DNA of 64,000 nucleotides from an uncultured Clostridia bacterium (GTDB lineage Bacteria > Bacillota > Clostridia > Christensenellales > UBA1242), in the NCBI GenBank assembly GCA_934757825.1, contig CAKVLP010000001.1:93834-157833 (forward strand), given 5' to 3'. Shown piece by piece: positions 3,290 through 48,732 of this stretch (positions are counted from its first letter, which is position 1; each line of letters opens with the position of its first letter). A program made the position numbers and the translations under genes. The notes below the pieces were generated by a model, which saw nothing but the letters and a program-made list of their open reading frames with translations, searched no databases and had not been told where the DNA came from.

Positions 3290-3470
3290 AAACTAAACTC
3301 CTTTTTTCATCCCAACTTAATTACTTAGTATTATTAAACATATTTTATATTATTTTGTCACATTTAGCAACAAAATACAACGAATTGTTTAAAAAGTTGG
3401 GGTCAAGTGGGTCGGAAACGGGCGCAAAGTGGTTTTTGAGGCGGAGGCGGTAGAAAGGTGGTGTTTTTTT

Positions 3471-3499
3471 TTGACAATGAAATGAAAAATAAATATAAT
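3471..3499 (+). promoter_or_regulatory. Sigma-A-type promoter of the coupling-protein gene
   Basis: TTGACA (3471-3476), 17-nt spacer, TATAAT (3494-3499), about 32 nt upstream of the RBS-led ATG at 3532. Confidence 0.55.
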
Positions 3500-3531
3500 G
3501 TAGTAAAACACAATATATTTAGGGGAGAAAA

Positions 3532-7522: not shown

Positions 7523-10500
7523 ATGAAAAAAAGCGGTTCTAAAAATATTTTTGTAAATATTATTTTAGGAATATCGATGATGCTATCTATGGTGGGTGGC
7601 ACTTTTTTAATGGTTGACGCAAGGCAAAACCAATTAAGAAAAGCGTATGCCGACGCCACAAGCAATCCTAACGACAACGGGATTACTTTTATATCGACTA
7701 GCGACAGTCAAAACGCCACTGGTCTAAACGGCGGTACATATGTATACAACAACGCCTCAATTAACTACATCGACGTTAAGGGTCTGGTGTATTATGTGAA
7801 AGACGGCAAAGTATACACCTCCCCTTCCCTAGACACAGAAACATCGGACTTAGAATACGAAATAAACGGCTCGTATGTGACAATTGGTGGGATAAATCAC
7901 GAAATCAAAAAAGACATCAAAATGTTTACATACAAGGGCGCGACTTGTTATTACAAGGACGGAATTGTATACGACTCCATAAACTGCCGTAACTCTATCA
8001 CAAGTGACTACGACACCATATACACATATACATACACAAATGGCGGAAACACCTATGTAGGCAAAAACACTATTGACCGCATTTACTTTGGTGCAAACCC
8101 TTATTACAAGATTAAAATGGTTAACGACGCTGACCCTAGCGACACTAAAACAATGTACGCGCTTGTTAAGTCTATTAACTACTACAAATTATACGAAGAA
8201 GAGACAGAAGGGAGCAAAGTCCTAGTAGAGTGTGTCAACGACAACCAAGATATGCCAACGCTAGAAAACATTTTGATCCACTCCAACCTACCAAGTTCGG
8301 GCACTATTGTAGAGGATTATATTAACGTTTTCAATAAACCATACTACATTCACGACAATAAATTGTATGCCAACGCATACTATATTGATATTGACAAAAC
8401 TAATGAATTCGACAGTAAAATTATAGAAAACACAAACAACACAATCACATTTGCCGAATCTGCCACCACAAACACCAAGACACTTCTAGTGTCGGGTGTT
8501 AACCACACTATGTCGGAAGTGGTTATCAACGGCGATGGGTACTATATTGACACATCGGCAAGTGGTCGCTTGACCAAGTTGTACAAAGAGTACACCGCTT
8601 CGACCGCCCACTCGCAATACATTACTATTGACGAAACAAACTCCGACGATACTAGCGCATATGGCGATTATTATACATTAGACGCTTTTAAAGTTGGGCA
8701 AGGATATTCGTATTATGTTAAGGCTGGCGTAACCAACAAATTTTACTCCTTATCTTCTTACGACGAGGAAGGCAGTGGCATCACTATTGACGGCGTAAAC
8801 TACCCTGTTGTAAATAATAAAGTAAAAGTAAACGGCACTTATTACAATGTGGCCGAAAACAAAGTAACAATTGACGGCGAAGACTATCAAGTTGGGAATG
8901 TTGTGTACAGCAAATACAATGTTACCGAAGCAAGTGTAGATGATGCATACATTCTTTCTAGCACCGTGGCAGAAAGAGACGTAAATGGCACAATAACCAG
9001 AGACGGAAGTGCCAGCGTGTTTGCCGAGCCAAGCAACTTGGATTTTAGTTATGTAATTGACTATTCTCCTGAAACCCCAGTAGTGAAAGCGACATTCTCC
9101 ACTGAGACTTTGGACGGGCACGAATTGCCAGGAGTAAGTTATACTTTTAACAGCACCCCAAAAACCACAATCCAGTATTTTATTAACAAATCAAACGACA
9201 TTAAAAAGGCTGGCACCGAAGCGCCTATTGCACAAAAAGCAGATGGTTCGTACGAACTAGAAAGCGATTTTGACATCTCGACTTACGAGCGCGATAAGGT
9301 TAGGATCCAAAAGTTTTCTGGAACGATAAACCGCGGAGCAACAGTGCCAAGTGTTGTACTTGATGAAAAGACTTATTACATTAAGGACGGAGAAAACAGC
9401 ACTCTTTACACCAGCAACACTCTTACACCTAGTACTCAAACAAGAGACTTTAAGGGTCTAACAATTGTTATTGGAACCAATTATGTAAATGTTTACAGGC
9501 TTTTCTCCCCTGTTACGATTAACCGAGTTACCTATTATGTTGCTGACAATGACAACACAAACCTTTACATTATCACAGGCGATGGTACAGCCAACAACCC
9601 ATACAGCGAACGAATTGCACAGCCTGATGAGTTTAGTTATACAATTGAGAAAACAACTAACAAAGTAACTACAACGTTCCGTTATCAATTGACCAACAAG
9701 TTGTTGAAAATCCTTACCTACACAAACAAAGTCGATGATGATGGCACCATTACAAAACTTAACATCGCATCGGATTACTTTACTTACGACACTCAATTCT
9801 TCTATTTCGACAACAAACTTTACACAAAGCAAGTTGACGACAGCACAACGAAAGAAGATTTGCTAAACTACCAGATGAAAGACTTCACTTTTTCAAGTGT
9901 TGTTACCGCAATTACAATTGGCAACGTTAACTACCCTGTTGAGGCTGCCGAATACACCACTGTTTCCATTAACGACAAGCAATATTATGTTGACGGCAAC
10001 AAGTTGTATGCGACTATGCTTTTGGGTTTTGAGGACGGAAACCGCAACCGTCTTATCACATATCAAGACGAAGTTAAAAACGGATTTTTCGACTACAAGA
10101 TTAACGCTTCTAAGAGACTTGTAACCATATTCACCGGCAGTGCGATTGTGACCGACAATGACACGACCGTTACACTAGCCAGTGGAGTTACGTCCAGAAG
10201 CACTTTTGAATCGGACGGAAAAACTTACTATCTTGGCGACGACAACAACATTTATCAAAAGGTTTCTAAAAAGACCACATCAGTGTCGTACAATTCGCGT
10301 AATTACTTTGCATTGAAAGAGCCTTACAAAGATACTACTTATTACATTTCAAAAACAACCTCTGCCAGCAACCCAGAGAACGCACTTAGCATTCCTGCAA
10401 ACACCGCTACTCCACTTGCTACTGTTGCTGGACAAACTTATTCGGCAACTTTCAACAAGGATACTTATAAAGTGACACTAACGCTAAGCAATGGTACTCC

Positions 10501-38487: not shown

Positions 38488-38583
38488 AGTTCCATTTTAA
38501 CACAAAAACACCCAAATACAAATACTTTTTTAGTTAAAATTAACAACATAATCGCCTTTTATCAATATTTTTGCCCAAATATA

Positions 38584-38613
38584 TTGACACCAATGCCACA
38601 AATTTAATATAAT
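38584..38613 (+). promoter_or_regulatory. Near-consensus sigma-A promoter reading into the tRNA-half / tRNA-Thr array
   Basis: TTGACA (38584-38589), 18-nt spacer, TATAAT (38608-38613). Confidence 0.5.
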
Positions 38614-38834
38614 ACATATGCAAATTTATGTTGTGGCTTGCCGGATCTCAAATTATACTTCGACAATTGATGTAAAAATCACCCCTTACACTACTCCATC
38701 GGAATTATAATTTGCACTTTGCTAGGAATAAACAAAAACGCTCTCTAATCAAAGTCCAAATCACATTTCCTGGTAAAGCAAAACAACATAATTTAGCAAA
38801 CAACAAGCTAAAAATTGCAGAACATTTGGTTCGT

Positions 38835-38871
38835 GCTGGTGTGGCTCAGCGGTAGAGCACCACCTTGGTAA
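38835..38871 (+). pseudogene. tRNA-Thr(GGU) 5' half, ending exactly after the anticodon loop, copy 1
   Basis: GCTGGTG-TG-GCTC-AGCGGTA-GAGC-A-CCACC-TTGGTAA. No complementary 3' strands follow. Confidence 0.8.
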
Positions 38872-38934
38872 AACAAAAACAGCACTTTTTCATCACTAAA
38901 TTTCACCGCAAAAATCGTTCAAAAACAGCACTAT

Positions 38935-38971
38935 GCTGGTGTGGCTCAGCGGTAGAGCACCACCTTGGTAA
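38935..38971 (+). pseudogene. tRNA-Thr(GGU) 5' half, copy 2 (37/37 identical to copy 1)
   Basis: Same 37-mer, starting exactly 100 bp after copy 1. The flanking 63-nt spacers are unrelated to each other. Confidence 0.8.
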
Positions 38972-39034
38972 GATTTGAAATGTCTAAAGTTACCGACTTA
39001 AAAACTTAATAAATTAGCCTATTTTTATAGATAT

Positions 39035-39109
39035 GCTACTGTGGCTCAGCGGTAGAGCACTGCCTTGGTAAGGCAGGGGTCACGGGTCCGATTCCCGTCA
39101 GTAGCTCCA
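39035..39109 (+). tRNA. tRNA-Thr (anticodon GGU), with encoded CCA
   Basis: Manual cloverleaf. Acceptor GCTACTG/CAGTAGC, D-arm GCTC-AGCGGTA-GAGC, anticodon arm CTGCC-TTGGTAA-GGCAG, variable loop GGGTC, T-arm ACGGG-TCCGATT-CCCGT, discriminator T, then CCA. Confidence 0.85.
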
Positions 39110-39316
39110 CTCATTAAAAGTCGCTAAATCCCTTTATTTTCCTAGGGTTTTGGCGATTTTTTATTCTTATTTTTTAACGAAGATTTTAAGTCTAAAAAAC
39201 ATTTGCTGTCAATTTTTGGTGCAATTGCTGTCAATATTTGCTCCATAAAAAAGACCGATAGTCAAAAAATCAACTCTCGGTCTAATTCGCTCTAAAACTC
39301 CCTAAAACTAGTGTAA

Positions 39317-39340
39317 TAGGTGTAAACTAGTGTAGTAAAA
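39317..39340 (+). repeat. Left copy of the imperfect direct repeat flanking the island
   Basis: TAGGTGTAAA-CT-AGTGTAGTAAA. The right copy reads TAGGTGTAAA-AAAA-GTGTAGTAAA. The upstream ~17 nt are also similar (CCCTAAAACTAGTGTAA versus CACTAAAATTGTTAATT). Confidence 0.45.
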
Positions 39341-39341
39341 T

Positions 39342-39725
39342 TTATTTTAATACTATCCAACCAGCGCCATTGCTACGCCTAACTTTTATTGGTTTTATCT
39401 TTTTAACATAATCAAGCCAAATTAAAGTACAATATTTCTTTTGAAGAGTTGTTTGCCAGTCTTCAAACTTATCGGTTCCAATTTCTTTGCCATATTTTAT
39501 TCTTATGTCTTCAACAATATGTGGTGTGAGTTCGAAGTATTTTACATCTTTCACTTTTGCAGTTGCCGTTACATCTTTGCCAGTTTCTTTTAATAGTATC
39601 TCGTCTCCAACAGAGACTTTGTTGTATGGTGCAACTTTATGCATACTCCATCTGCTTTCTATTGTTTTTTCTCCATTTAAAACCATATTAAAAAACGGCT
39701 GTTTTAAAATTGCAATATGTTTCAT
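39342..39725 (-). CDS. ASCH (PUA-like) domain protein
   Basis: Start MKHIAILKQPFFNMVLNGEKTIESRW at 39725. This N-terminal pattern and a size of ~127 aa are typical of ASCH domains. Confidence 0.65.
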   Translation of the reverse strand: MKHIAILKQPFFNMVLNGEKTIESRWSMHKVAPYNKVSVGDEILLKETGKDVTATAKVKDVKYFELTPHIVEDIRIKYGKEIGTDKFEDWQTTLQKKYCTLIWLDYVKKIKPIKVRRSNGAGWIVLK

Positions 39726-39741
39726 CTTTTTTACCTTTTCA

Positions 39742-40578
39742 TTAATTTTGTTTACAATACAATTCATATTTAGCAAGCATTCTTTGCATTGCTTTGTCTT
39801 CTTTGTTTATTAGGTTTTTTGCTTCTTCAATAGATACCCATTTAATTTCAGTCGATTCATTTGAAATTTCAAAAGACTTATTTTTAACTAAAAATAAAAA
39901 ATTTATATCATAATGGAAATGTTCAGGTTCATTTTTCTTTGCACTATAAGCAATTTGTTGAACATCAACATCAAATATGTCGTTTGAAATAAGTTTACAA
40001 TCATAAATTCCAGTTTCTTCGCTTATTTCTCTGCGAGCGACATTAATACAATTAGCATCACCATCACTATGTCCACCAAATTGGAACCACATTCCTGTCT
40101 TTTTGTGATGATTTAGTAATACATTGCCTTTACCATCAACAACAAGCCCACCTGCTGTTACATGACCTTTCAAATTAGACCTATCGTAACAGTTTGTATT
40201 ATTTGTTAAAAAATTCTGAACAATTCTAACATTCTCTTTTTCTTGTTCGTTAAATGGCTTGTAGTTGTTGAGTTCGCTAATAAGGTTGAATTCATGATAA
40301 ATAATTTCCTTGCCTAATTTATTCGCATACTCTATTTCAAGTTTAGTAGAATTACCAATATATCCGTCAATATTTACAACATAAATAGCATCTGAAAGTT
40401 CTATTCTTTTTAAATGTTCATTTTTTAATGAATTCAAATCTTCACTTGTTAAGTTTGCAAAATCCAAATCATAAACACATTGTAAAACACACCAGCCTTT
40501 ATCTATCGCCAAAATCCCAGCAATTCTTTGCATTTCTTTTGCAAATTTCATACTTCCACAAATAGTTACTACTTTCAT
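39742..40578 (-). CDS. Fusion protein: nucleoside 2-deoxyribosyltransferase-like domain + Nudix hydrolase
   Basis: The N-terminus MKVVTICGSMKFAKEM...SDAIYVVNIDGYIGNSTKLEIEYANKLGKEI is an NDT/DUF4406-like Rossmannoid. The C-terminus carries the Nudix box GGHSDGDANCINVARREISEETGI. Confidence 0.65.
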   Translation of the reverse strand: MKVVTICGSMKFAKEMQRIAGILAIDKGWCVLQCVYDLDFANLTSEDLNSLKNEHLKRIELSDAIYVVNIDGYIGNSTKLEIEYANKLGKEIIYHEFNLISELNNYKPFNEQEKENVRIVQNFLTNNTNCYDRSNLKGHVTAGGLVVDGKGNVLLNHHKKTGMWFQFGGHSDGDANCINVARREISEETGIYDCKLISNDIFDVDVQQIAYSAKKNEPEHFHYDINFLFLVKNKSFEISNESTEIKWVSIEEAKNLINKEDKAMQRMLAKYELYCKQN

Positions 40579-40636: not shown

Positions 40637-40984
40637 CTACATCTCAAAATCTTTTTCTCGTTTGCGCTTTCTTTCTTTTCGTTCTTTTAACATTTCTTCT
40701 AACATTAAATCAAAATCTTCATCAGACAAATTTTCCAGATTAGATTTCTTTTCTTTTTGTTCTTCTTTATTTTGATTGTTTTGCTTTCTCAAAATCTCAT
40801 TTTCATTTAATTTATCGTTTAAACGATTTGTGCTTTCTTTTACATAATCACTATTGACATTTTGTAGACAGTTATTGTGGTTTTCACATCACGATGACCT
40901 AAAAGATGTTGAATTACTTTTGGCCTTTATTCCCTTTGATTTGAGAAAAATTAAATTTGTGCCTGTGATATGTAATAATGGGGT
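40637..40984 (-). pseudogene. Tyrosine recombinase (phage-type integrase) C-terminal remnant, frameshifted
   Basis: Reverse-strand frames read PIITYHRHKFNFSQIKGNKGQK* and then, in another frame, VIQHLLGHRDVKTTITVYK (the LGH...TT..Y catalytic-Tyr motif). A third frame reads NSDYVKESTNRLNDKL...KRKREKDFEM*. No N-terminal part or start codon remains. Confidence 0.6.
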
Positions 40985-41133
40985 CTATGTTTTAACAAAA
41001 AATATTAAATATCAAAGTAAAAATTGTTTTATTTTTAATTATTTAACAATTTGTATTTATGAAAATAAATTTTATTGTGATTTTTTATTTAATATGATAT
41101 AATTTATTCATAATATTACATAAGGGAGTAATT

Positions 41134-41553
41134 ATGAAATTTTTTAGAGGTTTAAAGGCAACGTTTGAAGCTATCGGAAAACTTTGGAGAATAGAAAGAA
41201 AAAGAGATACCGAAATCAATCGCAATCCAACAGAAGAAGAATTAAAAGATAATAAAAAAGGGAAATTATCTATTGTTGTAACTATTGTCAGCACCATTGT
41301 TTATTTGATTGCATTCATATTGGTTGCTAGTTCATGGCAGGTAAATATTGGCTTGGGTATTTTTGTTTTAGTTTTGGTTTTGATTTTTACACCTTCAATT
41401 CAAATAAAAGCAATCAATTTAGCAAAACAACAACGAAAAATCAACGGGAAAGGCACTACGGCATTGATTCTTGCAAATGTTTTACCAACCATTGCATTGG
41501 TTGGTGGTGTGCTATTCTTTGCATTAGGTGGAATGTATATTTTCTTTAAATAA
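41134..41553 (+). CDS. Hypothetical membrane protein (3-4 TM)
   Basis: 139 aa with RBS AAGGGAG. Hydrophobic helices follow a charged N-terminus, and a terminator hairpin sits at 41573-41594. Confidence 0.6.
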   Translation: MKFFRGLKATFEAIGKLWRIERKRDTEINRNPTEEELKDNKKGKLSIVVTIVSTIVYLIAFILVASSWQVNIGLGIFVLVLVLIFTPSIQIKAINLAKQQRKINGKGTTALILANVLPTIALVGGVLFFALGGMYIFFK

Positions 41554-41618
41554 GAAAACAAAACACAAAAAAATACAACCTTGCTCGGTTGTATTTTTTT
41601 TGCTTTGATAAAAAGTTG

Positions 41619-43682
41619 TTATATTGTTTTATTCTTATATATTTGAACAAGTAAATATTGTACAAAAGGATCCCAGTTGTCATCACCAGAATAAGAAATT
41701 TCTATAACTAAATTACAATAATTTTCTGTACTTTTATCGGTTGTTAAAGTAAACTTTTGATACCTTGAATCTTTACCAACAATTGGTTCAAAATTTCCAG
41801 TAATATCGCTTGTAACTCCGGCAATATTATTTGCTCCAACTTCCATTGCTTTCCACTTAAAATTTACATCTTTATAATTATCATGATCAAGTGCTCCAAA
41901 TTTTAATTCAACAGTATTATCTGTATTGAATTTAATTGATTCACCGTTTGCAGGAGAACAAGATTGTTCAGCAATATTTCCTTTTGAAATCGTCCAGCTA
42001 TATTCAATATATCCTTCATTTTCGCCCGTTTTATCGTGTTTTGTGATTGTTATATTTTTATGAGGAGAATTAGTTGAATATTTTTCTTTATAATATAAAT
42101 TTGGATTAATATAACATTTTATAAAATAACTACCAACAGCTGAAGAATAAACATAGTTTTCAAAACCATCTTTTTCAAATTTAGCATTAGTATAAATACA
42201 ATAAGCTTTATTCGCTTCAAATGCTGTTTTCAAGCGTTGTGCAAGTTCTGTTTGCGTTGCGTCAGAAGAAATTAATTCATAATCTGATACATCTAGTTTG
42301 AATTTCATTTCTTGAGGATTACCATTGTTATCGGTTGAATACTTAAAGTTGTTTGGATCGTGTGAAACATCTAATATAGGTGCTTCATATGCAGATCTGT
42401 GAAGAATAATTGTAATTTCAAATTCTTGAGATTCAGCATAAAATTTTTCATAATAATTTTCATATCCTTTAGGCACAAACTTAACCCTAGTTGTTATTGT
42501 GTTTGTTTCACCTTTGGTGCTATCAAAGTTATATGTTTTAGGATTGACTTCCGCAAGGATGCCATAAATAGCAATTCTATCATCAATTTCGCCAGACAAT
42601 GTAAAATCCCACTCGGAATTTTCAAAATTATGCCATACTAATGTTTCATTTGTTAACTTATCATCATTTACTAAATTATTATTATTTTCGTCATTAAGGT
42701 CAGAATTGAAAAGTAATGATAGTTTACCATTTATTTTTGAATTATTGAAAAGTGAATTACCATTACCATTTGATATGCCTTTTAGTATTTCTTCAAGAGT
42801 GATACCTTTACAATTATCATGGTTAAAGGTGAAATCAATATTAAAGTTCTCTGCAGTTGCAACGATTTTTGATTTTTCTACAACAAGATGTTGATAAGCA
42901 GAATATGATTTAAGGTAATTTTCTTGTTCTGTTATTTCAGCAAAAATTAAATATTCACCTGGTCTCACGCTCTCTAAATTTGATAAATCAAAAGCACTAT
43001 AACTTTGAGAATTGTAAATTTCGTTTGGTTTTGGCAAAGCTTCGATTTCTTCTTGTTTTAGTGAAGAAATGTCGTAATTATAATAGTTTGTTGAATCATC
43101 ACTTTTATTTAAAATATAAATTTTTTCAACAATACTATCGTCTAATTTGGTATTGCCATTAAAAACGCTATAGTTGATACCTTTAAACTTTGTTCCATAG
43201 TAAATTTTATTTTCATCAATATTTCCCACTTTACTTGTAACTTTTAAAGTGTAGTTGCTATTGTTGTTTACTTTTGAAACATAGATATTAACTTCGCAAG
43301 AATTGTCTTTATAATTTAAAGTTAACCTCCAAGAGCCAGCTGTAAGATTTGAATCTTCACACATTTGAGTGTATTCTTCAAAAGTTTTAGTAACTCTACT
43401 TTCCTCTAAGCCATCAGCCGAAAAACTTACGGTTATTTGAACATTAGACAATTCAACATTTTCCTCAGAACCATCTGAATAATATGCTTTTATTTTTATA
43501 TTGTTAAGTCCAGTAGTATTACCAAAATCTCTGGTCTCGTGAATTGTTGTTGAATATTCAGCATCAGCCAAAGATACTTGAATGTTATTTAACTTTTTAT
43601 CATTACCGCAGGCACTTAACAAAAACACGCAAGGAATAATTAAGCAAAAAGCAAAAATAAAGCTCAACAATTTCTTTTTCAA
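41619..43682 (-). CDS. Large lipoprotein, N/Y/T/S-rich, unknown function
   Basis: 687 aa. Signal MKKKLLSFIFAFCLIIPCVFLLSACGND with a lipobox. No other motif recognised. Confidence 0.7.
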   Translation of the reverse strand: MKKKLLSFIFAFCLIIPCVFLLSACGNDKKLNNIQVSLADAEYSTTIHETRDFGNTTGLNNIKIKAYYSDGSEENVELSNVQITVSFSADGLEESRVTKTFEEYTQMCEDSNLTAGSWRLTLNYKDNSCEVNIYVSKVNNNSNYTLKVTSKVGNIDENKIYYGTKFKGINYSVFNGNTKLDDSIVEKIYILNKSDDSTNYYNYDISSLKQEEIEALPKPNEIYNSQSYSAFDLSNLESVRPGEYLIFAEITEQENYLKSYSAYQHLVVEKSKIVATAENFNIDFTFNHDNCKGITLEEILKGISNGNGNSLFNNSKINGKLSLLFNSDLNDENNNNLVNDDKLTNETLVWHNFENSEWDFTLSGEIDDRIAIYGILAEVNPKTYNFDSTKGETNTITTRVKFVPKGYENYYEKFYAESQEFEITIILHRSAYEAPILDVSHDPNNFKYSTDNNGNPQEMKFKLDVSDYELISSDATQTELAQRLKTAFEANKAYCIYTNAKFEKDGFENYVYSSAVGSYFIKCYINPNLYYKEKYSTNSPHKNITITKHDKTGENEGYIEYSWTISKGNIAEQSCSPANGESIKFNTDNTVELKFGALDHDNYKDVNFKWKAMEVGANNIAGVTSDITGNFEPIVGKDSRYQKFTLTTDKSTENYCNLVIEISYSGDDNWDPFVQYLLVQIYKNKTI

Positions 43683-43877
43683 TTTATTTTCCTCCTTAAA
43701 ATTGAATTCCTATTTTTATTATAGCATATATTTTAAGAAATCTTATACAAAATTTTAATTTTTTCAAAAATATTTTTGTTTAATATTATATTCATAAATA
43801 CATACAATTTCTCACAAATAAAAATAGCATTAGGTTATGTTCCTAGTGCTATTTTTTGATTTATGTATTTATTTTTA

Positions 43878-44711
43878 TTATTTATCTTCATTAGGTTTTA
43901 TTTCAAGTAAGTTTTTATTGTCTGCATTGAGTGGGGAGATTGCCTTTTTGCCAGTTTCTTCTTCATATCTTTTCTTGGCGTCACTAGCAACACTGCCACC
44001 ACGACGAGCAATCTTTTTATTTTCTTCAAAAGATTTTGGATTTTCTTGTTTTGAAATGGCTGTTGTTGTAACTTCTGCAAGCATATTAAGGACAAGTTCA
44101 ATGTTGGTCATATTGTCCCTTAGGTTTTCTTTTTTTAAGCCTTTAAGTTGTTTGTATTCTTGAACGCTCATTCCAGACCAAGCCTTAGTCATTTCATTTG
44201 TGAGTATTGCATAGTCTTTTTCTTGCGTAACTCCACGATTTTGCCATTCATCAGTGAGTTCTTTTCGCGTTTTAATAGTCATCATTCTTTGGGTTATCCA
44301 TTCTTCTGGATAGCCTTTTTGTCTATAAGTTTCTACGGCTCTATCAATAGCTTTTTGTGGGTCGGCAATTTCATCTAGTCTTTCACTTCCACACGAAGCA
44401 AGCCACATTTTGAAAGGTTCTGCTTTTTTGCTTGGAATAGATTGAACAAGACGAAGTAAATCTTTTGTATTAACCACATCTGTTAATCTTGATTTGCCAT
44501 CTTTTGCAATCATTTTCAAAGCGTTACAATTTGTAACGGTTTCATTTCCTTCATCTTTTAATCTCTTTTTTAGAACTCTCCAATAAGTTTGTGGGTTGGG
44601 ACTATCTGTCAATGCTTCAACAACATCAACAACCGAAAAATACCAATCTTCTTCATCAGCATTCCATTGTGTCCTAATTTTTTTATCTTCAAATACCTTA
44701 ATGTTAGACAT
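43878..44711 (-). CDS. Bro-N domain / DinD-like (DNA-damage-inducible protein D family) protein
   Basis: N-terminus KIRTQWNADEEDWYFSVVDVVEALT is Bro-N-like. C-terminus KGLKKENLRDNMTNIELVLNMLAE parallels E. coli DinD KGLKKNQKILDHMGSTELAANLF. Confidence 0.65.
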   Translation of the reverse strand: MSNIKVFEDKKIRTQWNADEEDWYFSVVDVVEALTDSPNPQTYWRVLKKRLKDEGNETVTNCNALKMIAKDGKSRLTDVVNTKDLLRLVQSIPSKKAEPFKMWLASCGSERLDEIADPQKAIDRAVETYRQKGYPEEWITQRMMTIKTRKELTDEWQNRGVTQEKDYAILTNEMTKAWSGMSVQEYKQLKGLKKENLRDNMTNIELVLNMLAEVTTTAISKQENPKSFEENKKIARRGGSVASDAKKRYEEETGKKAISPLNADNKNLLEIKPNEDK

Positions 44712-44883: not shown

Positions 44884-44907
44884 TAGGTGTAAAAAAAGTG
44901 TAGTAAA
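44884..44907 (+). repeat. Right copy of the imperfect direct repeat flanking the island
   Basis: TAGGTGTAAAAAAAGTGTAGTAAA. Its GTGTAGTAA also pairs with TTACTACAC at 44917-44925, forming a 9-bp hairpin. Confidence 0.45.
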
Positions 44908-45185
44908 CTAAAATCTTACTACACTAATTGATTTTTTATATCTCAAATTCTCTTATTTTATGGGCGATTTAGGAGATAGAGCGAAACTCTTTGCTTTCAG
45001 AACAGAGTTTTGGCAAGCACGTGTACCATAGCATAACTAGCATTATGGTTAGTGAAACAATATAAAGATGCTTTTTAATAAAATTTTATTTTCAAAAGGA
45101 AAAAGTTATAATAAAATGAAAAGTTATGATATAATAAAGTCACTGAAAGTATAGTAATATTTTTACACAACAAGGAACAACAAAA

Positions 45186-45935
45186 ATGACGAAATCAAAG
45201 CAATGTTTAAATTCTAATCATTTGAAATTGATTGCTATTATCGCAATGACAATAGACCACATTTGCGATTTAGTTTATCCCGGGTTTCCAGCCGAACCAG
45301 CGACAATCACCCTACACATTATTGGGCGCCTAACTGCTCCGATTATGTGGTTTTTCATATGCGAAGGATATCACTACACGCACAATGTCAAAAAGTATAT
45401 GTTACGATTGGGAATTTTTGCATTCATTTCTCACTTTGCCTATTGTTTTGCATTCGGAATAAATATGATTCCTTTTAGTTCTGGAATTTTCAATCAAACA
45501 AGCATTATGTATCCATTATTTATTGCAGTTGTGGTTATGTGGATGCAAGACAACGAATTACCAATGAAGAATTGGGTAAAAAACATTCTAATTGTCCTAT
45601 TGATTTTAAGCACTTTTCCTGCCGATTATAGTTGCATCGCGGTGTTTGCAATTCTCGGCATGCATAAACACAGAGGAAACTTGGAAAAACAAACGCTCGC
45701 AATGCTATTTTGGGTCACAATATACTCGATAGTATCGTTTATTTTTGTGAGCAAAACGTACGCCTTTGCGCAAATCGGTGTTTTGCTAGTATATCCAGTT
45801 TTGAAACTATACAACGGTGAAAAAGGAAAAGCAAAGTGGATGAAATGGTTTTTCTATTTATATTATCCTCTACACCTTATCGTCGTCGGCATCATTCGTA
45901 TTTGCGTATATGGAAACATTAGCCTTTTGTTTTAG
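45186..45935 (+). CDS. TraX-family membrane protein (acyltransferase-like)
   Basis: LKLIAIIAMTIDHICD motif. Polytopic, 249 aa. Confidence 0.7.
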   Translation: MTKSKQCLNSNHLKLIAIIAMTIDHICDLVYPGFPAEPATITLHIIGRLTAPIMWFFICEGYHYTHNVKKYMLRLGIFAFISHFAYCFAFGINMIPFSSGIFNQTSIMYPLFIAVVVMWMQDNELPMKNWVKNILIVLLILSTFPADYSCIAVFAILGMHKHRGNLEKQTLAMLFWVTIYSIVSFIFVSKTYAFAQIGVLLVYPVLKLYNGEKGKAKWMKWFFYLYYPLHLIVVGIIRICVYGNISLLF

Positions 45936-46236
45936 TAATTTGCAAATTTTCCAATATTAAGGTTGTTTTTGTTTGGTCGACGAACTAACAAAATAAAGAT
46001 AAAATAACATAATAGTTCCCAAAAATCACAAGGTTTTTCAGCGACATAAATTAAAAAACAAATAAAAGTATTGGGCAATTTTACATAGTTTTTGACCACA
46101 TAGACACACTTAAACGCGCGCGTTCGCTGGAATACTTGGCGCTGCAAAAAGGCTAAAAAAGAAAAGATAAAAAAGCGACTAAATGTCTCTTTAAAAAAAT
46201 GAAGTTTTATTACAAAAAATTAAACGAGGTGAAACA

Positions 46237-46770
46237 ATGATTTACTTTGTAAGGCACGGGCAAACCGACGACAATGCAAACGGGAATTTGCTAACCGGCT
46301 GGTCGGCTACCCCGCTCAACTCAAAAGGAATAGCGCAAGCGAAAGAGACCGCTCTCAAACTAAAAGATGTCAAATTTGACATTTGTTTCTGCTCCCCGCT
46401 ACGCCGAACCAAGCAAACTCTTGATGAGATTTTAAAATATCACAAAGACCTTAAAGTTGTTTATGATGACAGACTAAAAGAGCGTGATTACGGCGAAATA
46501 ACTGGAAAGCCCGCTGACATTTGCAAGTTTAGGAGATGGAACGCCAACGACGAAATCCCCTTTCAAATGGAAAGCATTCCTAAAATGTACGAAAGGGTCA
46601 AAAGTTTTTATGACGACCTAAAAGCAAACTACTCCAACAAATCAGTTTTGATAGTTTCGCACAGTGGCGTTGGGCGATTATCGTACTTTTATTTTAATGG
46701 GCTACCCGAAGATGGCGACTATTCAAACTTTGAACTTGGCAACGCTAAAATTATGGAATTGGAGTTTTAA
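46237..46770 (+). CDS. Histidine phosphatase family protein (phosphoglycerate mutase-like)
   Basis: MIYFVRHGQTDDN (the RHG motif) and a second catalytic His in IVSHSGV. Confidence 0.8.
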   Translation: MIYFVRHGQTDDNANGNLLTGWSATPLNSKGIAQAKETALKLKDVKFDICFCSPLRRTKQTLDEILKYHKDLKVVYDDRLKERDYGEITGKPADICKFRRWNANDEIPFQMESIPKMYERVKSFYDDLKANYSNKSVLIVSHSGVGRLSYFYFNGLPEDGDYSNFELGNAKIMELEF

Positions 46771-46976
46771 AAGCGCGTGACTAGGACGTTTTTTAACAAG
46801 ATAAACGCGCGAAATACCTTTAAATTTTCACAGCACTGAAACCCACTAAATATAATGATAATTTTAATAATAGGAAAAACAAAAAAGCAGGTTAAATAGC
46901 CTGCTTTTTGTTTTTTATTGAGTTGATTTTTGGATAAAACTTGATTTGAGTTAAAGTAAAGTTGTCGAGCAAAAAA

Positions 46977-48011
46977 CTAAAAATCTTTAAATATTTTTTC
47001 CATTTTTTCTAATGCTATTTTCAACTTTTTCCTAGGCAAGGCAACATTTAGTCTTTGGAAGCCTTTACCAGAGTTTCCAAACATTTTTCCATTATCCAAC
47101 CATAGTTTTGCCTTTTTAACCATAAGTTCTTCTATTTTTTCGTCTGACAAATTAAGCCCATTAAAATCCAGCCAAAGTAAATATGTTCCCTCTGGATAAA
47201 TTAGTTTAACTTTTGGAAGTTTTTCTTTTAAAAAACTATCAACAAAATTTATGTTGTCCAAAAGATAATTCCTTAACTCATTCAACCATTTTTGACCATT
47301 TTCGTAGGCTGAACGGCAAGCAACTAACCCCATTATGTTTATAAGGCTATAACCAGTGTTCCATAGTTCCAACTGGAATTTTTCTCTAACTTTTTCATTT
47401 GAGATAAATATATTTGAAACTTGCAATCCAGCCAAGTTAAAGGTTTTGGTTGGCGCGGTGCAAAGTATAACTTGGTTTTGAATAGCATCACAACTTAAAA
47501 TGCAAGTATGTTCCCCTCTCCACACAAAATCGCTATGGATTTCGTCACAAACAATAAAAACATTGTGCTTTTTACAAATCTCAATGATTTTGTTTAGTTC
47601 CTCTTTTGTCCATACTCTACCCACGGGATTGTGGGGCGAACACAACAAATACGCCTTAACATTATATTGTTTAATTTTATTTTCCAAATCCTCAAAATCT
47701 AGTTCATAGTGACCATTTTTTAACACCAAATCACTACTAACAATTTTCCTTTTGTTGTCTTGCACAACCTCGCTGAAAGGATAGTAAACAGGATTATTTA
47801 TTAGTACATAATCATTTTCTTTAGTAAGGCTTTTCACTGCTGTCGCCAGTGCAAAAACCACCCCTGGCGTTGTTATAAGCCAATCTTGTTTTAACTCTAC
47901 ATTATGGTTTTGTTTATACCAATTCTTAACCGCGTTAAAATACGTAGCGTCGTTTTTGGAATATCCAAACACGCCGTGGTCGATTTTTTTATTTATCAAT
48001 TCAAAACACAA
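46977..48011 (-). CDS. PatB/MalY-type PLP-dependent C-S lyase (aminotransferase class I/II), apparently 5'-truncated
   Basis: HGVFGY..., NPVYYPF, CSPHNPVGRVW, DEIHSDF and APTKTFNLAGL motifs. The ORF opens with TTG only two codons after an in-frame TAA, so the ~40 N-terminal residues usual in this family are missing. Confidence 0.6.
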   Translation of the reverse strand: MCFELINKKIDHGVFGYSKNDATYFNAVKNWYKQNHNVELKQDWLITTPGVVFALATAVKSLTKENDYVLINNPVYYPFSEVVQDNKRKIVSSDLVLKNGHYELDFEDLENKIKQYNVKAYLLCSPHNPVGRVWTKEELNKIIEICKKHNVFIVCDEIHSDFVWRGEHTCILSCDAIQNQVILCTAPTKTFNLAGLQVSNIFISNEKVREKFQLELWNTGYSLINIMGLVACRSAYENGQKWLNELRNYLLDNINFVDSFLKEKLPKVKLIYPEGTYLLWLDFNGLNLSDEKIEELMVKKAKLWLDNGKMFGNSGKGFQRLNVALPRKKLKIALEKMEKIFKDF

Positions 48012-48081
48012 CCCATTTTAAACTATGCACAAAGGCACAATTTATCTTAGAGCTTTAATTTTTTATAAACACCACACAAAT

Positions 48082-48732
48082 TTATTTTAGCACGGCCGAA
48101 TTGTAATTTTTTTCTACAAAGTCTTTTAAGATTTTTATTTTTCGGGAAGCCATTTTTTGACCCGTGGCGGTGTGCATATTTTCACCTTGTGGAATCATTG
48201 TGCGATAAATATAATGGCAAGTTGAAATCGGGTTAACATCTGGCGCATATTCGCTACAATCAAGCGGATATTTAGTGTCCACAACGGGAATTTTGTGAGT
48301 TTTGCAATACTTTAATGTTCTATTAAGCCCAATTTTCCCAAGCGCATCCAAAGCATCAGCATCTTGCAAAACCTGCCACTCAATAGGGATGTTTTTTACA
48401 TCCTTCTTTTCGTGTGTTTTCACCGCATCAAGAATAGCTGGAATTTTATCTTCATTAACACCGCACGCCACCAAGATTTGTTTTACTTCGTCAAGGCTAT
48501 CTTTAGGTGCAACATACTTGCCTGCCCTATTTTGCATTAGCCTATGAATATCGTGAACCAACGCTGATATGGCAATAACATATTCGTCACCGCCTTCCTT
48601 TTTTTGAATAATAATGGCATTATTCAAAACCCTTTTTAGGTGTTCTATATCGTGTCCCGTGTTTTCGTCCTTAAAAAGTCGCTCTATTTCACAATAAACT
48701 TTATCAATGTCTTGTTGTAATTTTGCATCCAA
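48082..48732 (-). CDS. HD-domain metal-dependent phosphohydrolase
   Basis: GHDIEHLKRV ... ALVHDIHR (the H...HD...D pattern). Confidence 0.75.
   Translation of the reverse strand: MDAKLQQDIDKVYCEIERLFKDENTGHDIEHLKRVLNNAIIIQKKEGGDEYVIAISALVHDIHRLMQNRAGKYVAPKDSLDEVKQILVACGVNEDKIPAILDAVKTHEKKDVKNIPIEWQVLQDADALDALGKIGLNRTLKYCKTHKIPVVDTKYPLDCSEYAPDVNPISTCHYIYRTMIPQGENMHTATGQKMASRKIKILKDFVEKNYNSAVLK

What the first reader, a model, noticed from the sequence alone, without database searches (positions are those of the whole stretch)
38584..39109. Two identical tRNA-Thr 5' halves and an intact tRNA-Thr phased exactly 100 bp apart behind one strong promoter
The three starts are at 38835, 38935 and 39035.

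What the halves are:
- The first two units are 37/37 identical: GCTGGTGTGGCTCAGCGGTAGAGCACCACCTTGGTAA.
- That covers the acceptor 5' strand, the D-arm, the anticodon-stem 5' strand and the full anticodon loop (GGT). Both stop precisely after loop position 38.
- The two 63-nt spacers are unrelated to each other. They lack the complementary GGTGG and CACCAGC strands, so neither unit can fold into a tRNA.

Origin:
- The halves differ from the intact gene at 6 positions: acceptor GGT versus ACT, and anticodon stem CCACC versus CTGCC.
- In the intact gene those positions are compensated on the 3' side, so the halves derive from a different tRNA-Thr(GGU) allele.
- Integration into tRNA genes normally duplicates 3' portions, not 5' portions.

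Other repeats:
- More degraded copies of the same junction lie upstream: CTAGGAATAAACAAAAAC at 38722-38739 and CCTGGTAAAGCAAAACAACA at 38769-38788. Compare CCTTGGTAAAACAAAAACA at 38863-38881.
- A 13-nt direct repeat, CAAAAACAGCACT, brackets spacer 1 (38874-38886 and 38920-38932).

Everything lies downstream of TTGACA-18-TATAAT (38584-38613), so it would be co-transcribed.

Hypotheses: stacked scars of recombination at the anticodon loop, decoy att sites, or deliberately expressed tRNA-half-like RNAs. The identity of the repeats against unrelated spacers argues for either very recent events or selection.
Basis: seen in the sequence. Interest (0 to 1): 0.65.

Follow-up and report, generated by a model that had tools for sequence, protein, structure and literature searches.

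The report
Stacked scars of tRNA-replacing mobile elements
The two tRNA-Thr "halves" are the leftover front ends of earlier tRNA-Thr genes, each cut in its anticodon loop by an integrating mobile element that brought its own replacement tRNA; this strategy is already known from phages ("tRNA-dependent lysogeny") and here leaves a neat 100-bp ladder in a gut Clostridia genome.

Summary
Two identical 37-nt tRNA-Thr(GGU) 5' halves (38835, 38935) and one intact gene (39035) lie 100 nt apart behind one conserved promoter, identically in two independent assemblies.

They are attL scars. A sister species has one intact gene with exactly the halves' allele at this site. The two "unrelated" 63-nt spacers are conserved modules that recur in more than 30 metagenome loci, each tied to the tRNA allele that follows it.

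Fully delimited elements (L051, L065, L064) show the mechanism. A tyrosine-integrase element recombines within the 7-nt anticodon loop TTGGTAA and does not rebuild the target. It carries its own complete tRNA-Thr(GGU) 61-64 nt inside its left end, and it leaves the target's 3' half at its far end. Each new element enters the previous element's tRNA, so 5' halves stack in phase.

In the window the incoming element's body and the orphan 3' half were lost. The loss came from recombination with the resident element; a chimeric joint lies at ~39271-39276, and only an integrase remnant survives (40640-40923).

This is the known "tRNA-dependent lysogeny" logic, here in non-phage, relaxase-bearing elements. 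I found no evidence that the halves themselves have a function.

The parts
38584..38613 (+). Resident sigma-70-type promoter (TTGACA-18-TATAAT) that would drive the whole ladder and the intact tRNA
   Evidence: It scores 12/12 and is conserved in sister species L006. Three other arrays likewise have a single near-consensus promoter upstream and none in the spacers.
38769..38776 (+). Decayed anticodon-loop remnant (CCTGGTAA): an older, third junction whose 5' half is no longer recognisable
   Evidence: Together with 38777-38834 it aligns to the loop+spacer junction of L069/L070 with score 55, against a shuffle maximum of 28 (0/2000). An nhmmer profile of 5' halves finds nothing upstream of it.
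38777..38834 (+). Spacer of type D (58 nt): left-end module of the element that delivered the gene now seen as half 1
   Evidence: It is homologous to the 62-nt spacer that precedes the terminal tRNA in L069/L070 and ends with the same ...gaacatttggttcgt.
38835..38871 (+). tRNA-Thr(GGU) 5' half no. 1 (allele GCTGGTG/CCACC), positions 1-38: attL scar
   Evidence: It is identical to the 5' part of the intact gene at the syntenic site in L006.
38872..38934 (+). Spacer type A (63 nt): left-end module of an element, always followed by the GCTGGTG allele
   Evidence: It recurs at 88-100% identity in about 20 loci, always directly after a loop and directly before that allele.
38935..38971 (+). tRNA-Thr(GGU) 5' half no. 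2 (same allele): 5' part of the tRNA carried by the type-A element, later split by the type-B element
38972..39034 (+). Spacer type B (63 nt): left-end module of the last element to arrive, always followed by the GCTACTG allele
   Evidence: It is 93-97% identical in L043, L053, L055 and L056, always before that allele.
39035..39109 (+). Intact, element-borne tRNA-Thr(GGU) (allele GCTACTG/CTGCC with compensated 3' strands): the working gene
   Evidence: ARAGORN; Rfam RF00005, 68.7 bits.
39116..39161 (+). Terminator hairpin of the element-borne tRNA
   Evidence: The fold gives a 17-pair hairpin followed by a U run. It is conserved after the tRNA in L043, L055, L065 and L070.
39203..39234 (+). 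Two TTGCTGTCAA repeats (39203-39212, 39225-39234): putative arm-type integrase sites of the type-B element
   Evidence: The same motif occurs four times in the left ends of L043, L055, L065 and L070, and in the right (P) arm of the L065 element.
39245..39310 (+). Conserved hairpin block containing the chimeric joint (~39271-39276) between a TTGCTGTCAA-type and a GTGTAGTAA-type element
   Evidence: In alignment A2 the window follows L043/L055 up to ...AAAAATC-AACT and L051/L053 from CTCGG... onward. The hairpin has one mismatch (gaccgaTag/ctCtcggtc), whereas both parental types pair perfectly.
39311..39338 (+). GTGTAATAG / GTGTAGTAA repeats: putative arm-type sites of the older resident element
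   Evidence: The arrangement is identical in L051 and L053, next to a 461-aa integrase.
39342..40578 (-). ASCH and NUDIX genes occupying the cargo slot between the arm sites and the integrase stop codon
   Evidence: Pfam. They are absent from this position in L051. The NUDIX protein is 90% identical to the one in the same slot of L064.
40640..40923 (-). Remnant of the element's tyrosine integrase gene (codons 367-461 only)
   Evidence: tblastn gives 94.6% identity to the L051 461-aa integrase over residues 388-461, and 90% over residues 367-386.
40924..44711 (.). Remnant cargo: a 139-aa and a 687-aa hypothetical protein and a Bro-N protein; GC 27-31%
   Evidence: Composition profile; Pfam. The Bro-N protein is 67% identical to a cargo gene of the L062 element.
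44898..44924 (.). GTGTAGTAA motifs (one direct, one inverted): probable right (P) arm of the resident element
   Evidence: AGTTTTGGCAAG at 45006-45017 resembles right junctions elsewhere (aagttTTGGTAAg), but it is not significant on its own.

Best explanation
The array is a ladder of attL scars. It was left by successive integrations of tyrosine-integrase mobile elements that target the anticodon loop of tRNA-Thr(GGU) and replace the gene instead of repairing it.

How it works:
- Shown in related loci: the element recombines within the 7-nt loop TTGGTAA. The common core with the target is only 7-10 bp.
- Shown: the target's 5' half (positions 1-38) stays behind the resident promoter. The target's 3' half ends up at the far end of the element.
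- Shown: 61-64 nt inside its left end the element carries a complete tRNA-Thr(GGU). After it come a terminator, arm-type repeats and the integrase gene.
- Inferred: the new tRNA has no promoter of its own and is transcribed from the resident promoter through the old half.
- The next element integrates into this new tRNA, so every round adds one unit of 37 + 63 = 100 nt.

History of the window (order inferred):
1. A type-D unit arrived. Its junction at 38769 has since decayed.
2. A type-A element carrying GTGTAGTAA arm sites arrived.
3. A type-B element carrying TTGCTGTCAA arm sites and the GCTACTG allele arrived.
4. Homologous recombination in the conserved hairpin block shared by the two stacked elements (joint at ~39271-39276) deleted the type-B integrase, its cargo and the orphan 3' half.
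5. The surviving integrase later decayed to a 95-codon remnant.

The halves are by-products. Nothing found here indicates that they have a function.
For: (1) Sister species L006 has, at the syntenic holB-proximal site and behind the same promoter, one intact tRNA whose 5' half is identical to the window's halves.

(2) The native 3' half is absent from all 64 kb of the window.

(3) A metagenome scan for 'half not followed by its stem' gave 20 loci with 1-3 halves spaced 91-103 nt apart, mostly 99-100 nt. A catalogue across 32 loci shows that every truncated copy ends at position 38. Of 42 spacers, 38 are 62-64 nt. Spacer families are tied to the allele that follows them. Both orders occur, A into E and B into N.

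(4) In L051 a 3,931-bp insert lies between a 5' half and a perfect 3' half, with TTGGTAA at both junctions. It carries its own tRNA-Thr 61 nt inside, a 388-aa tyrosine integrase, and an AAA_21/RloB pair. Removing it in silico restores an intact tRNA and a flank 94.7% collinear with L053.

(5) In L065 the orphan 3' half, with the loop, lies 12.8 kb downstream of the element's own tRNA. In L064 a second element abuts the 3' half of a resident element's tRNA, which is a nested integration.

(6) A related integrase lies 0.2-2 kb downstream of the terminal tRNA in most loci that extend far enough. Ten of the 11 integrase-anchored loci also carry a tRNA-Thr(GGU) or its orphan 3' half. The family has 482 homologues at E <= 1e-30.

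(7) The arm-repeat motif co-varies with the integrase subfamily, and the window is a chimera of two subfamilies with a mismatched hairpin at the joint.

(8) The window keeps an integrase remnant and element-type cargo.

(9) Each of four arrays has a single strong promoter upstream and no promoter-like site in the spacers.

(10) The mechanism class is experimentally established in mycobacteriophages (PMC10865867).
Against: - The window has no intact integrase, no orphan 3' half and no demonstrable right junction; the candidate at 45006 is not significant. Its history is therefore reconstructed by analogy with other loci.
- Only three right-hand junctions were seen. None belongs to a type-A or type-B element.
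- No excised circular attP form was found.
- Arrays with identical consecutive units (L049, L058) could have grown by unequal crossing-over rather than by separate integrations.
- The strong conservation of spacer length (62-64 nt) is not explained.
- Transcription of the ladder and dependence on the resident promoter are inferred from consensus scans only.
- All data come from metagenome assemblies.
Confidence: 0.85

Rival explanations
1. The halves are ordinary deletion remnants of a local tandem duplication of tRNA-Thr genes, with no mobile element involved.
For: The repeats are tandem and evenly spaced. Some arrays have identical consecutive units (L049, L058), which unequal crossing-over could produce.
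Against: - The spacers are two unrelated modules that recur in other genomic contexts, each tied to the allele that follows it.
- Both orders of A and B units occur.
- Every truncation is at exactly position 38.
- Integrases follow the arrays.
- Occupied and empty site pairs exist, as do orphan 3' halves carrying the loop.
Confidence: 0.03
2. The units come from 'reverse-orientation' elements. Their attP would carry the 5' part of the tRNA and rebuild the gene with it, displacing the resident 5' part, as described for a few elements and for Caldiarchaeum tRNA-Thr(GGU). The cargo between half and spacer would then have been lost.
For: 5' fragments upstream of an intact gene are what such elements leave (PMC3293823). 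Most arrays show no cargo between units.
Against: - At all three right junctions the sequence left of the core has no 5'-half identity: aagtt, cattc and ttaaa before TTGGTAA.
- The spacer plus a complete tRNA directly follow the displaced half at the left junction of L051 and L065, which is the opposite of that model's prediction.
- Precise loss of all cargo in dozens of loci would be required.
Confidence: 0.04
3. The halves are kept by selection. They might serve as co-transcribed tRNA-half-like RNAs, as a leader that modulates maturation of the downstream tRNA, or as decoy or secondary att sites that affect further integration.
For: They lie between a strong conserved promoter and the tRNA with no terminator in between, so they should be transcribed. 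Each retains the target-side arm and the core of the att site. The halves are sequence-perfect while the spacers vary between loci.
Against: - Perfect identity is expected without selection, because each half was a conserved working gene until it was split.
- The oldest unit in the window has decayed beyond recognition, and several older halves elsewhere carry point changes.
- Copy number varies from 0 to 3 or more between loci.
- The halves match no Rfam family.
Confidence: 0.07
4. The array is an assembly artefact caused by repeat collapse or expansion.
For: Short-read contigs do break in these repeats (L003, L004). One public contig ends in an Illumina adapter right after a half (L048).
Against: The sequence is identical in two independent assemblies from different samples. 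Arrays with the same architecture occur in more than 30 contigs from many studies.
Confidence: 0.01

Closest known systems
tRNA-dependent lysogeny of actinobacteriophages (Fionnbharth, Cluster L, Gaia and others; Guerrero-Bustamante & Hatfull 2024, PMC10865867); Lj965 of Lactobacillus johnsonii is cited there as a probable case
   Same: - A tyrosine integrase acts at an attB inside a tRNA gene.
- The common core is only about 8-17 bp, so the host tRNA is not rebuilt.
[quoted passage not shown]
- Arm-type repeats flank the core.
   Different: - The elements here are not phages. They have no virion genes and give no hits in viral collections. They carry a MobL-type relaxase and defence-type cargo.
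- The replacement tRNA lies 61-64 nt from the core, inside the attP arm, and has no detectable promoter, so it appears to use the resident promoter. Fionnbharth's tRNA lies elsewhere in the phage genome and has its own demonstrated promoter.
- The target is tRNA-Thr(GGU), and the host is a gut Clostridia lineage.
- Serial replacement leaves a phased ladder of 5' halves, which that paper does not describe.
Canonical tRNA-targeting integrative elements, anticodon-loop sublocation (Williams 2002, cited from my own knowledge and via PMC7192596)
   Same: A tyrosine integrase crosses over in the 7-nt anticodon loop flanked by the stem's dyad symmetry. The integrase gene lies close to the tRNA end of the element.
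   Different: Canonical elements carry the 3' part of the tRNA in attP and rebuild the gene, leaving a 3' fragment at the far end. Here attP shares only the loop (7-10 bp), and the gene is split and replaced.
'Gene replacement' by integrative genetic elements (Mageeney et al. 2020, PMC7192596: a tmRNA-encoding island in a Rhodobacter tmRNA gene; hrpB islands)
   Same: The target gene is disrupted, left unrestored, and supplanted by an element-borne homologue.
   Different: Those cases concern tmRNA and a protein-coding gene. No ladder of fragments is described for them.
Tandem arrays of integrative elements and recombination between neighbouring elements (Mageeney et al. 2020, PMC7192596, section on tandem arrays)
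   Same: Repeated integration at a regenerated site, with hybrids formed by recombination between neighbouring elements. The window's chimeric left end is such a hybrid.
   Different: Here the site is regenerated by the element's own tRNA, so integrations are nested rather than side by side. Recombination erases the 3' fragments while the 5' fragments accumulate.
5'-fragment cases: Caldiarchaeum subterraneum tRNA-Thr(GGU) with a 5' fragment 1.8 kb upstream and a recombinase between them (Sugahara et al. 2012, PMC3293823); 'reverse orientation' elements (Zhao & Williams 2002, known to me and cited in PMC6563490)
   Same: A 5' fragment of tRNA-Thr(GGU) lies upstream of an intact copy as a result of element integration.
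   Different: In those cases attP carries the 5' portion and rebuilds the gene, giving a direct repeat of the 5' part. Here the right junction has no 5' identity, and a complete gene is delivered.

Membership tests
tRNA-dependent integration (tRNA-dependent lysogeny type) | The element encodes a tyrosine-family integrase with arm-type sites flanking the core | tested here: met
   Pfam domains Phage_integrase, Phage_int_SAM_3 and Phage_int_M are found in the L051 integrases and throughout the family. Repeated motifs co-vary with integrase subfamily on both arms. The window itself keeps only a 95-codon remnant.
tRNA-dependent integration (tRNA-dependent lysogeny type) | attB lies inside a tRNA gene and shares only a short common core (about 10 bp) with attP | tested here: met
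   Reconstructed from junction pairs, the core is TTGGTAAGGT (10 bp) in L051 and CTTGGTAAG (9 bp) in L065. The 7-nt loop is present at both junctions in L051 and L065, and at the visible right junction in L064.
tRNA-dependent integration (tRNA-dependent lysogeny type) | No functional tRNA is rebuilt at attL or attR | tested here: met
   Halves at attL are followed by non-complementary spacers, and neither ARAGORN nor Rfam calls them as tRNAs. Orphan 3' halves at attR are preceded by unrelated sequence.
tRNA-dependent integration (tRNA-dependent lysogeny type) | [quoted passage not shown] | tested here: met
   A complete tRNA-Thr(GGT) lies 61-64 nt inside the left end in the window and in all arrays that extend that far.
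tRNA-dependent integration (tRNA-dependent lysogeny type) | The element-borne tRNA is required for survival of the host after integration | not testable with these tools
   This needs genetics. It also needs the full tRNA complement of the host genome, and only 64 kb is available, containing one tRNA.
tRNA-dependent integration (tRNA-dependent lysogeny type) | The element is a temperate phage | tested here: not met
   No virion genes appear in L051, L062 or L064-L072. Instead there are a MobL relaxase, defence systems and Bro-N. Seven scans of viral contigs and one phage-database search found nothing specific.
Canonical tRNA-restoring integrative element | attP contains the 3' (or 5') portion of the tRNA, so that an intact recombinant gene forms at one junction | tested here: not met
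   Identity between the junction flanks and the tRNA is limited to the loop plus 0-3 nt.
Integrative and mobilizable element (IME) | An integration module plus a relaxase/oriT, with no conjugation pore of its own | tested here: inconclusive
   Integrase, an 85-aa ORF and a MobL relaxase (PF18555) are seen in L062, L063, L065-L067, L069 and L071, and no type IV secretion genes appear within 10 kb. The 3.9-kb L051 element has no relaxase. Transfer was not tested.
CRISPR array | Short identical repeats with unique spacers, a leader, and associated cas genes | tested here: not met
   The repeats are tRNA 5' halves. The 'spacers' are a few recurring conserved modules, not unique sequences. No cas genes were seen among the neighbours annotated between 35 and 51 kb.

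The most novel reading that the evidence does not exclude
The ladder may not be inert. Every replacement lengthens the leader of the cell's tRNA-Thr(GGU) transcript by one tRNA half, and each half keeps the target-side arm and the core of the att site. The accumulated halves could therefore act in two ways. As RNA, they could mispair with the 3' half of the precursor or yield stable tRNA-half-like species. As DNA, they could act as partial att sites. Either effect could influence tRNA maturation or competition between incoming elements. Carrying a tRNA allele with different stems (GCTACTG/CTGCC versus GCTGGTG/CCACC) could then be selected, either to avoid such mispairing or to escape tRNA-directed defence cargo.
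Probability: 0.1. Interest if true: 0.7.

Novelty: new variant of a known kind. Interest (0 to 1): 0.4.

Why it matters
- **Annotation:** it explains a type of feature that annotators will meet again, namely phased tRNA 5' halves upstream of a working tRNA. It gives a simple rule for reading them: each unit records one past gene replacement.
- **Scope of the mechanism:** it extends tRNA-dependent integration from actinobacteriophages, where it was shown experimentally, to a large family of non-phage elements in uncultured gut Clostridia. The integrase family has 482 homologues at E <= 1e-30. These elements carry relaxases and defence systems.
- **Island-finding software:** tools that look for a displaced 3' tRNA fragment matching an intact tRNA would misread these loci. 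The intact tRNA next to the integrase belongs to the element, and the matching fragment lies upstream of it.
- **Host tRNA turnover:** a host's tRNA-Thr(GGU) allele can be swapped repeatedly by mobile DNA.
- **A possible tool:** the compact module of core, 63-nt spacer and promoterless tRNA could be used as an integration cassette that selects for itself, as proposed for the mycobacterial systems.

Tried and rejected
- **Phage origin.** Neither the 37-mer, the intact allele, the generic truncated-half pattern, the orphan 3'-half pattern, the integrase, nor two predicted attP junctions occurs in viral contigs. The phage database gave only generic tRNA similarity.
- **Split tRNA with a 3' half elsewhere.** No matching 3' half exists anywhere in the 64 kb.
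- **The whole low-GC stretch 39.1-48.9 kb as one island bounded by tRNA fragments.** Synteny with L006 resumes only at ~48.1-49.4 kb. However, element-type sequence can be traced only to ~44.9 kb, and the genes beyond it (TraX, histidine phosphatase, aminotransferase, HD) have no counterpart in the elements sampled.
- **Right junction at 45006 (AGTTTTGGCAAG).** It lies where expected but is not significant.
- **Second upstream 'degraded junction' at 38722.** Not significant.
- **Ancient scar in the sister species' leader.** Not significant.
- **Strains of the same species with a different number of units.** None of the metagenome loci shares the window's holB flank. The five contigs that do are identical to the window.
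- **MFE folding of the 551-nt leader + tRNA.** It was informative only for the terminator.
- **CRISPR-like reading.** Rejected; see the membership test.
Full report
**1. The observation**

The region reads as described. The 37-mer GCTGGTGTGGCTCAGCGGTAGAGCACCACCTTGGTAA occurs at 38835 and 38935. A related copy at 39035 is the 5' part of an intact gene. Starts are spaced 100 and 100 nt apart.

ARAGORN and Rfam find only one tRNA in the 64 kb: tRNA-Thr(GGT) at 39035-39109, 68.7 bits.

The promoter-like site at 38584-38613 matches 12/12. No terminator-like site lies on the + strand before the tRNA. A strong terminator hairpin follows the tRNA at 39116-39161.

The complete holB-to-ASCH intergenic region (855 bp) is identical in two assemblies from different samples. 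Two short contigs end inside the repeats, as expected for a real repeat.

**2. Context and the key comparison**

Upstream, on the opposite strand, lie holB, a PSP1/RicT-type gene, a methyltransferase and rsmI. Downstream the GC content falls to 27-31%, and the genes are ASCH, NUDIX, two hypotheticals and Bro-N.

HolB relatives place the organism among uncultured gut Clostridia.

The closest species representative is L006, with 73% HolB identity. At the same site, behind the same TTGACA-18-TATAAT promoter, it has one intact tRNA-Thr(GGT). That gene's 5' half is identical to the window's halves, and its 3' strands (GGTGG, CACCAGC) complement them.

The halves therefore represent the allele seen intact elsewhere, and the window's intact gene is the different one. 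The matching 3' half is absent from the whole window.

**3. The spacers are modules, not junk**

I scanned metagenome contigs for a tRNA-Thr(GGU) 5' half that is not followed by its stem. This returned 20 loci with one to three such halves, spaced 91-103 nt apart and mostly 99-100 nt.

The window's two spacers each recur:
- Type A (aacaaaaacagcact...cagcactat) is always followed by the GCTGGTG allele.
- Type B (gatttgaaatg...tatagatat) is always followed by the GCTACTG allele.
- Further types exist.

In a catalogue of 74 half-type matches in 32 loci, every truncated copy ends exactly at position 38. Of 42 spacers, 27 are 63 nt, 8 are 62, 3 are 64, one is 61, and three are 51-54 nt. Both orders occur: an A unit inserted into the GCTACTG allele (L053, L056) and a B unit inserted into the GCTGGTG allele (window, L055).

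This rules out local tandem duplication. It also explains the 100-nt phase as 37 + 63.

**4. Delimited elements show the mechanism**

*L051.* A 5' half is followed by a 61-nt spacer, a complete tRNA-Thr(GGT) of a third allele, a 388-aa tyrosine integrase and an AAA_21/RloB-like gene pair. Then comes ...ctaagtt-TTGGTAA-GGTGG..., a perfect 3' half of the split gene. The 7-nt loop is present at both junctions. Removing the 3,931-bp insert in silico gives an intact tRNA and a flank 94.7% collinear with L053.

*L065.* The orphan 3' half, again preceded by the loop and by unrelated sequence, lies 12.8 kb downstream of the element's own tRNA.

[quoted passage not shown] This is a nested integration.

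Identity between junction flanks and the tRNA is limited to 9-10 bp, so attP does not carry a tRNA fragment able to rebuild the gene.

**5. The elements**

A related integrase (31-96% identical) lies convergent with the terminal tRNA, 0.2-2 kb downstream of it, in most loci that extend far enough. The family has 482 homologues at E <= 1e-30.

Of 11 loci retrieved through three of those homologues, nine carry a tRNA-Thr(GGT) next to the integrase. A tenth, L064, carries the orphan 3' half of one. The last, L072, ends too early to show this. Where upstream sequence is held, these loci have 5'-half-like segments there.

Gene content is as follows:
- an 85-aa ORF and the integrase;
- a MobL-type relaxase;
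- variable cargo, including MmeI-type and type I restriction-modification, AAA_21/RloB, AbiEii, reverse transcriptases and Bro-N.

No virion genes were seen, and viral collections hold nothing related. These look like small integrative, probably mobilizable, elements.

The closest solved integrase is Tn1549 Int, and only distantly (E = 7e-9).

**6. Left-end architecture and the window's history**

Left ends are modular. The order is: tRNA, terminator, two arm-type repeats, a conserved hairpin block, two more arm-type repeats, and the integrase stop codon.

The repeat motif co-varies with the integrase subfamily:
- TTGCTGTCAA in L043, L055, L065 and L070. It also occurs in the right arm of the L065 element.
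- GTGTAGTAA-type in L051 and L053.
- TTAGGTACAC in L060.

The window is a hybrid. It has TTGCTGTCAA twice (39203, 39225). Between 39271 and 39276, inside the hairpin block, the sequence switches type. After the switch come GTGTAATAG/GTGTAGTAA (39311-39338) and the remnant of an L051-type integrase: codons 367-461, 94.6% identical, at 40640-40923. The hairpin at the joint has one mismatch, whereas both parental types pair perfectly.

The simplest reading has four steps:
1. A type-B element integrated into the tRNA of a resident GTGTAGTAA-type element that carried spacer A.
2. Homologous recombination between the two conserved hairpin blocks deleted the type-B integrase, its cargo and the orphan 3' half.
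3. Later the remaining integrase was truncated.
4. ASCH-NUDIX came to occupy the slot next to the arm sites. The same slot holds NUDIX-acetyltransferase in L064 and reverse-transcriptase genes in L065-L072.

This route also explains why 5' halves accumulate while 3' halves vanish.

GTGTAGTAA motifs at 44898 and 44916 probably mark the right arm of the resident element. A junction-like AGTTTTGGCAAG at 45006 is not significant.

**7. Older events**

The supposed native leader just before half 1 (38777-38834) is itself a spacer of another type. It is preceded by a decayed loop, CCTGGTAA, at 38769. Its homology to the L069/L070 junction is far above chance.

The half that should precede this junction is no longer detectable. 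The second candidate at 38722 is not significant. L006's leader shows no significant scar.

The window therefore records at least three replacements. The oldest unit has decayed, which argues against selection on the halves.

**8. Expression (inferred)**

In the window and in three other arrays there is one near-consensus promoter upstream of the whole ladder. No promoter-like site lies in any spacer on the tRNA strand.

The incoming tRNA thus appears to be promoterless and to be transcribed from the resident promoter, with the old halves as part of a long 5' leader that RNase P would remove. This has not been shown experimentally.

**9. Comparison with what is known**

The logic matches 'tRNA-dependent lysogeny', shown experimentally for mycobacteriophages. 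It has four elements: a tyrosine integrase, a short common core in a tRNA gene, no reconstruction of the gene, and a cognate tRNA on the element. The authors of that work cite Lj965 of Lactobacillus johnsonii as a probable further case (PMC10865867). Mageeney et al. also note 'gene replacement' for a tmRNA gene and for hrpB, and they describe recombination within tandem arrays (PMC7192596).

The differences here are:
- The elements are not phages.
- The target is tRNA-Thr(GGU), and the host is a gut Clostridia lineage.
- The replacement tRNA is built into the attP arm at a fixed 61-64 nt from the core and apparently uses the resident promoter.
- Integrations are serial and nested, which produces a phased ladder of 5' halves.

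The archaeal Caldiarchaeum case is of the other type, in which a 5' fragment in attP rebuilds the gene (PMC3293823). My literature searches found no description of such ladders. The searchable library is incomplete, however.

**10. Verdict**

The feature is a decayed remnant of a known integration strategy in a new setting and with a new architecture. It has moderate interest. Its value lies in the rule it provides for reading such loci, and in the large, undescribed element family it points to.

Noticed in passing
window 39342-40578; L064 2033-3367; L065 11702-12913: The short stretch between the arm-type repeats and the integrase stop codon is a variable cargo slot. It holds ASCH+NUDIX in the window, NUDIX+acetyltransferase in L064, and a 70-aa ORF plus reverse-transcriptase genes in L065-L072. 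In L051 and L053 it is empty.
   Followed up: partly
L051 5798-9721 (+ strand coordinates): This is a very small (3.9 kb) integrative element made of only a tRNA-Thr, a tyrosine integrase and an AAA_21 ATPase + RloB-like pair, which looks like a defence system. The same gene pair is cargo of the 12.9-kb L065 element. A tRNA-carrying element that also carries a possible nuclease system might be worth a closer look.
   Followed up: no
window 39183-39237, minus strand: The reverse complement of the arm motif TTGCTGTCAA contains TTGACA. This creates a promoter-like site (TTGACA-18-TAAAAT, 11/12) pointing back towards the tRNA, and it also accounts for the 22-nt inverted similarity to the resident promoter region (38581-38602). 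I could not tell whether this is a real antisense promoter or a coincidence.
   Followed up: no
L064, reverse-complement coordinates 8300-8340: Two TTGGTAA cores lie 13 nt apart at the right junction (agttTTGGTAAaaatatttttaaaTTGGTAAggcgg). This may be the right-end counterpart of a nearly completely deleted element.
   Followed up: no
L048 1350-1397: This public metagenome contig ends in an Illumina adapter (AGATCGGAAGAGCACACGTCTGAACTCCAGTCAC) directly after the second half. That is an assembly artefact in the deposited data, not biology.
   Followed up: yes
L049 4376-4629; L058 (reverse complement) 3340-3614: Consecutive half-plus-spacer units are identical to each other in these arrays (three in L049, two in L058). 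This suggests either repeated integration of the same element or growth of the ladder by unequal crossing-over.
   Followed up: no
window 38872-38934 and spacer A copies in other loci: Spacer length is strongly constrained: 38 of 42 spacers are 62-64 nt, even across unrelated spacer families. Type A also carries an internal 13-nt direct repeat near both ends. The reason for the fixed distance between the core and the tRNA is unexplained.
   Followed up: partly
window 45186-48732: Between the element remnant and the point where synteny with L006 resumes lie TraX, a histidine phosphatase, an aminotransferase and an HD-domain gene. The HD gene has a homologue in L006, but in a different position. 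I did not resolve whether this block is native or the remains of yet another insertion.
   Followed up: no
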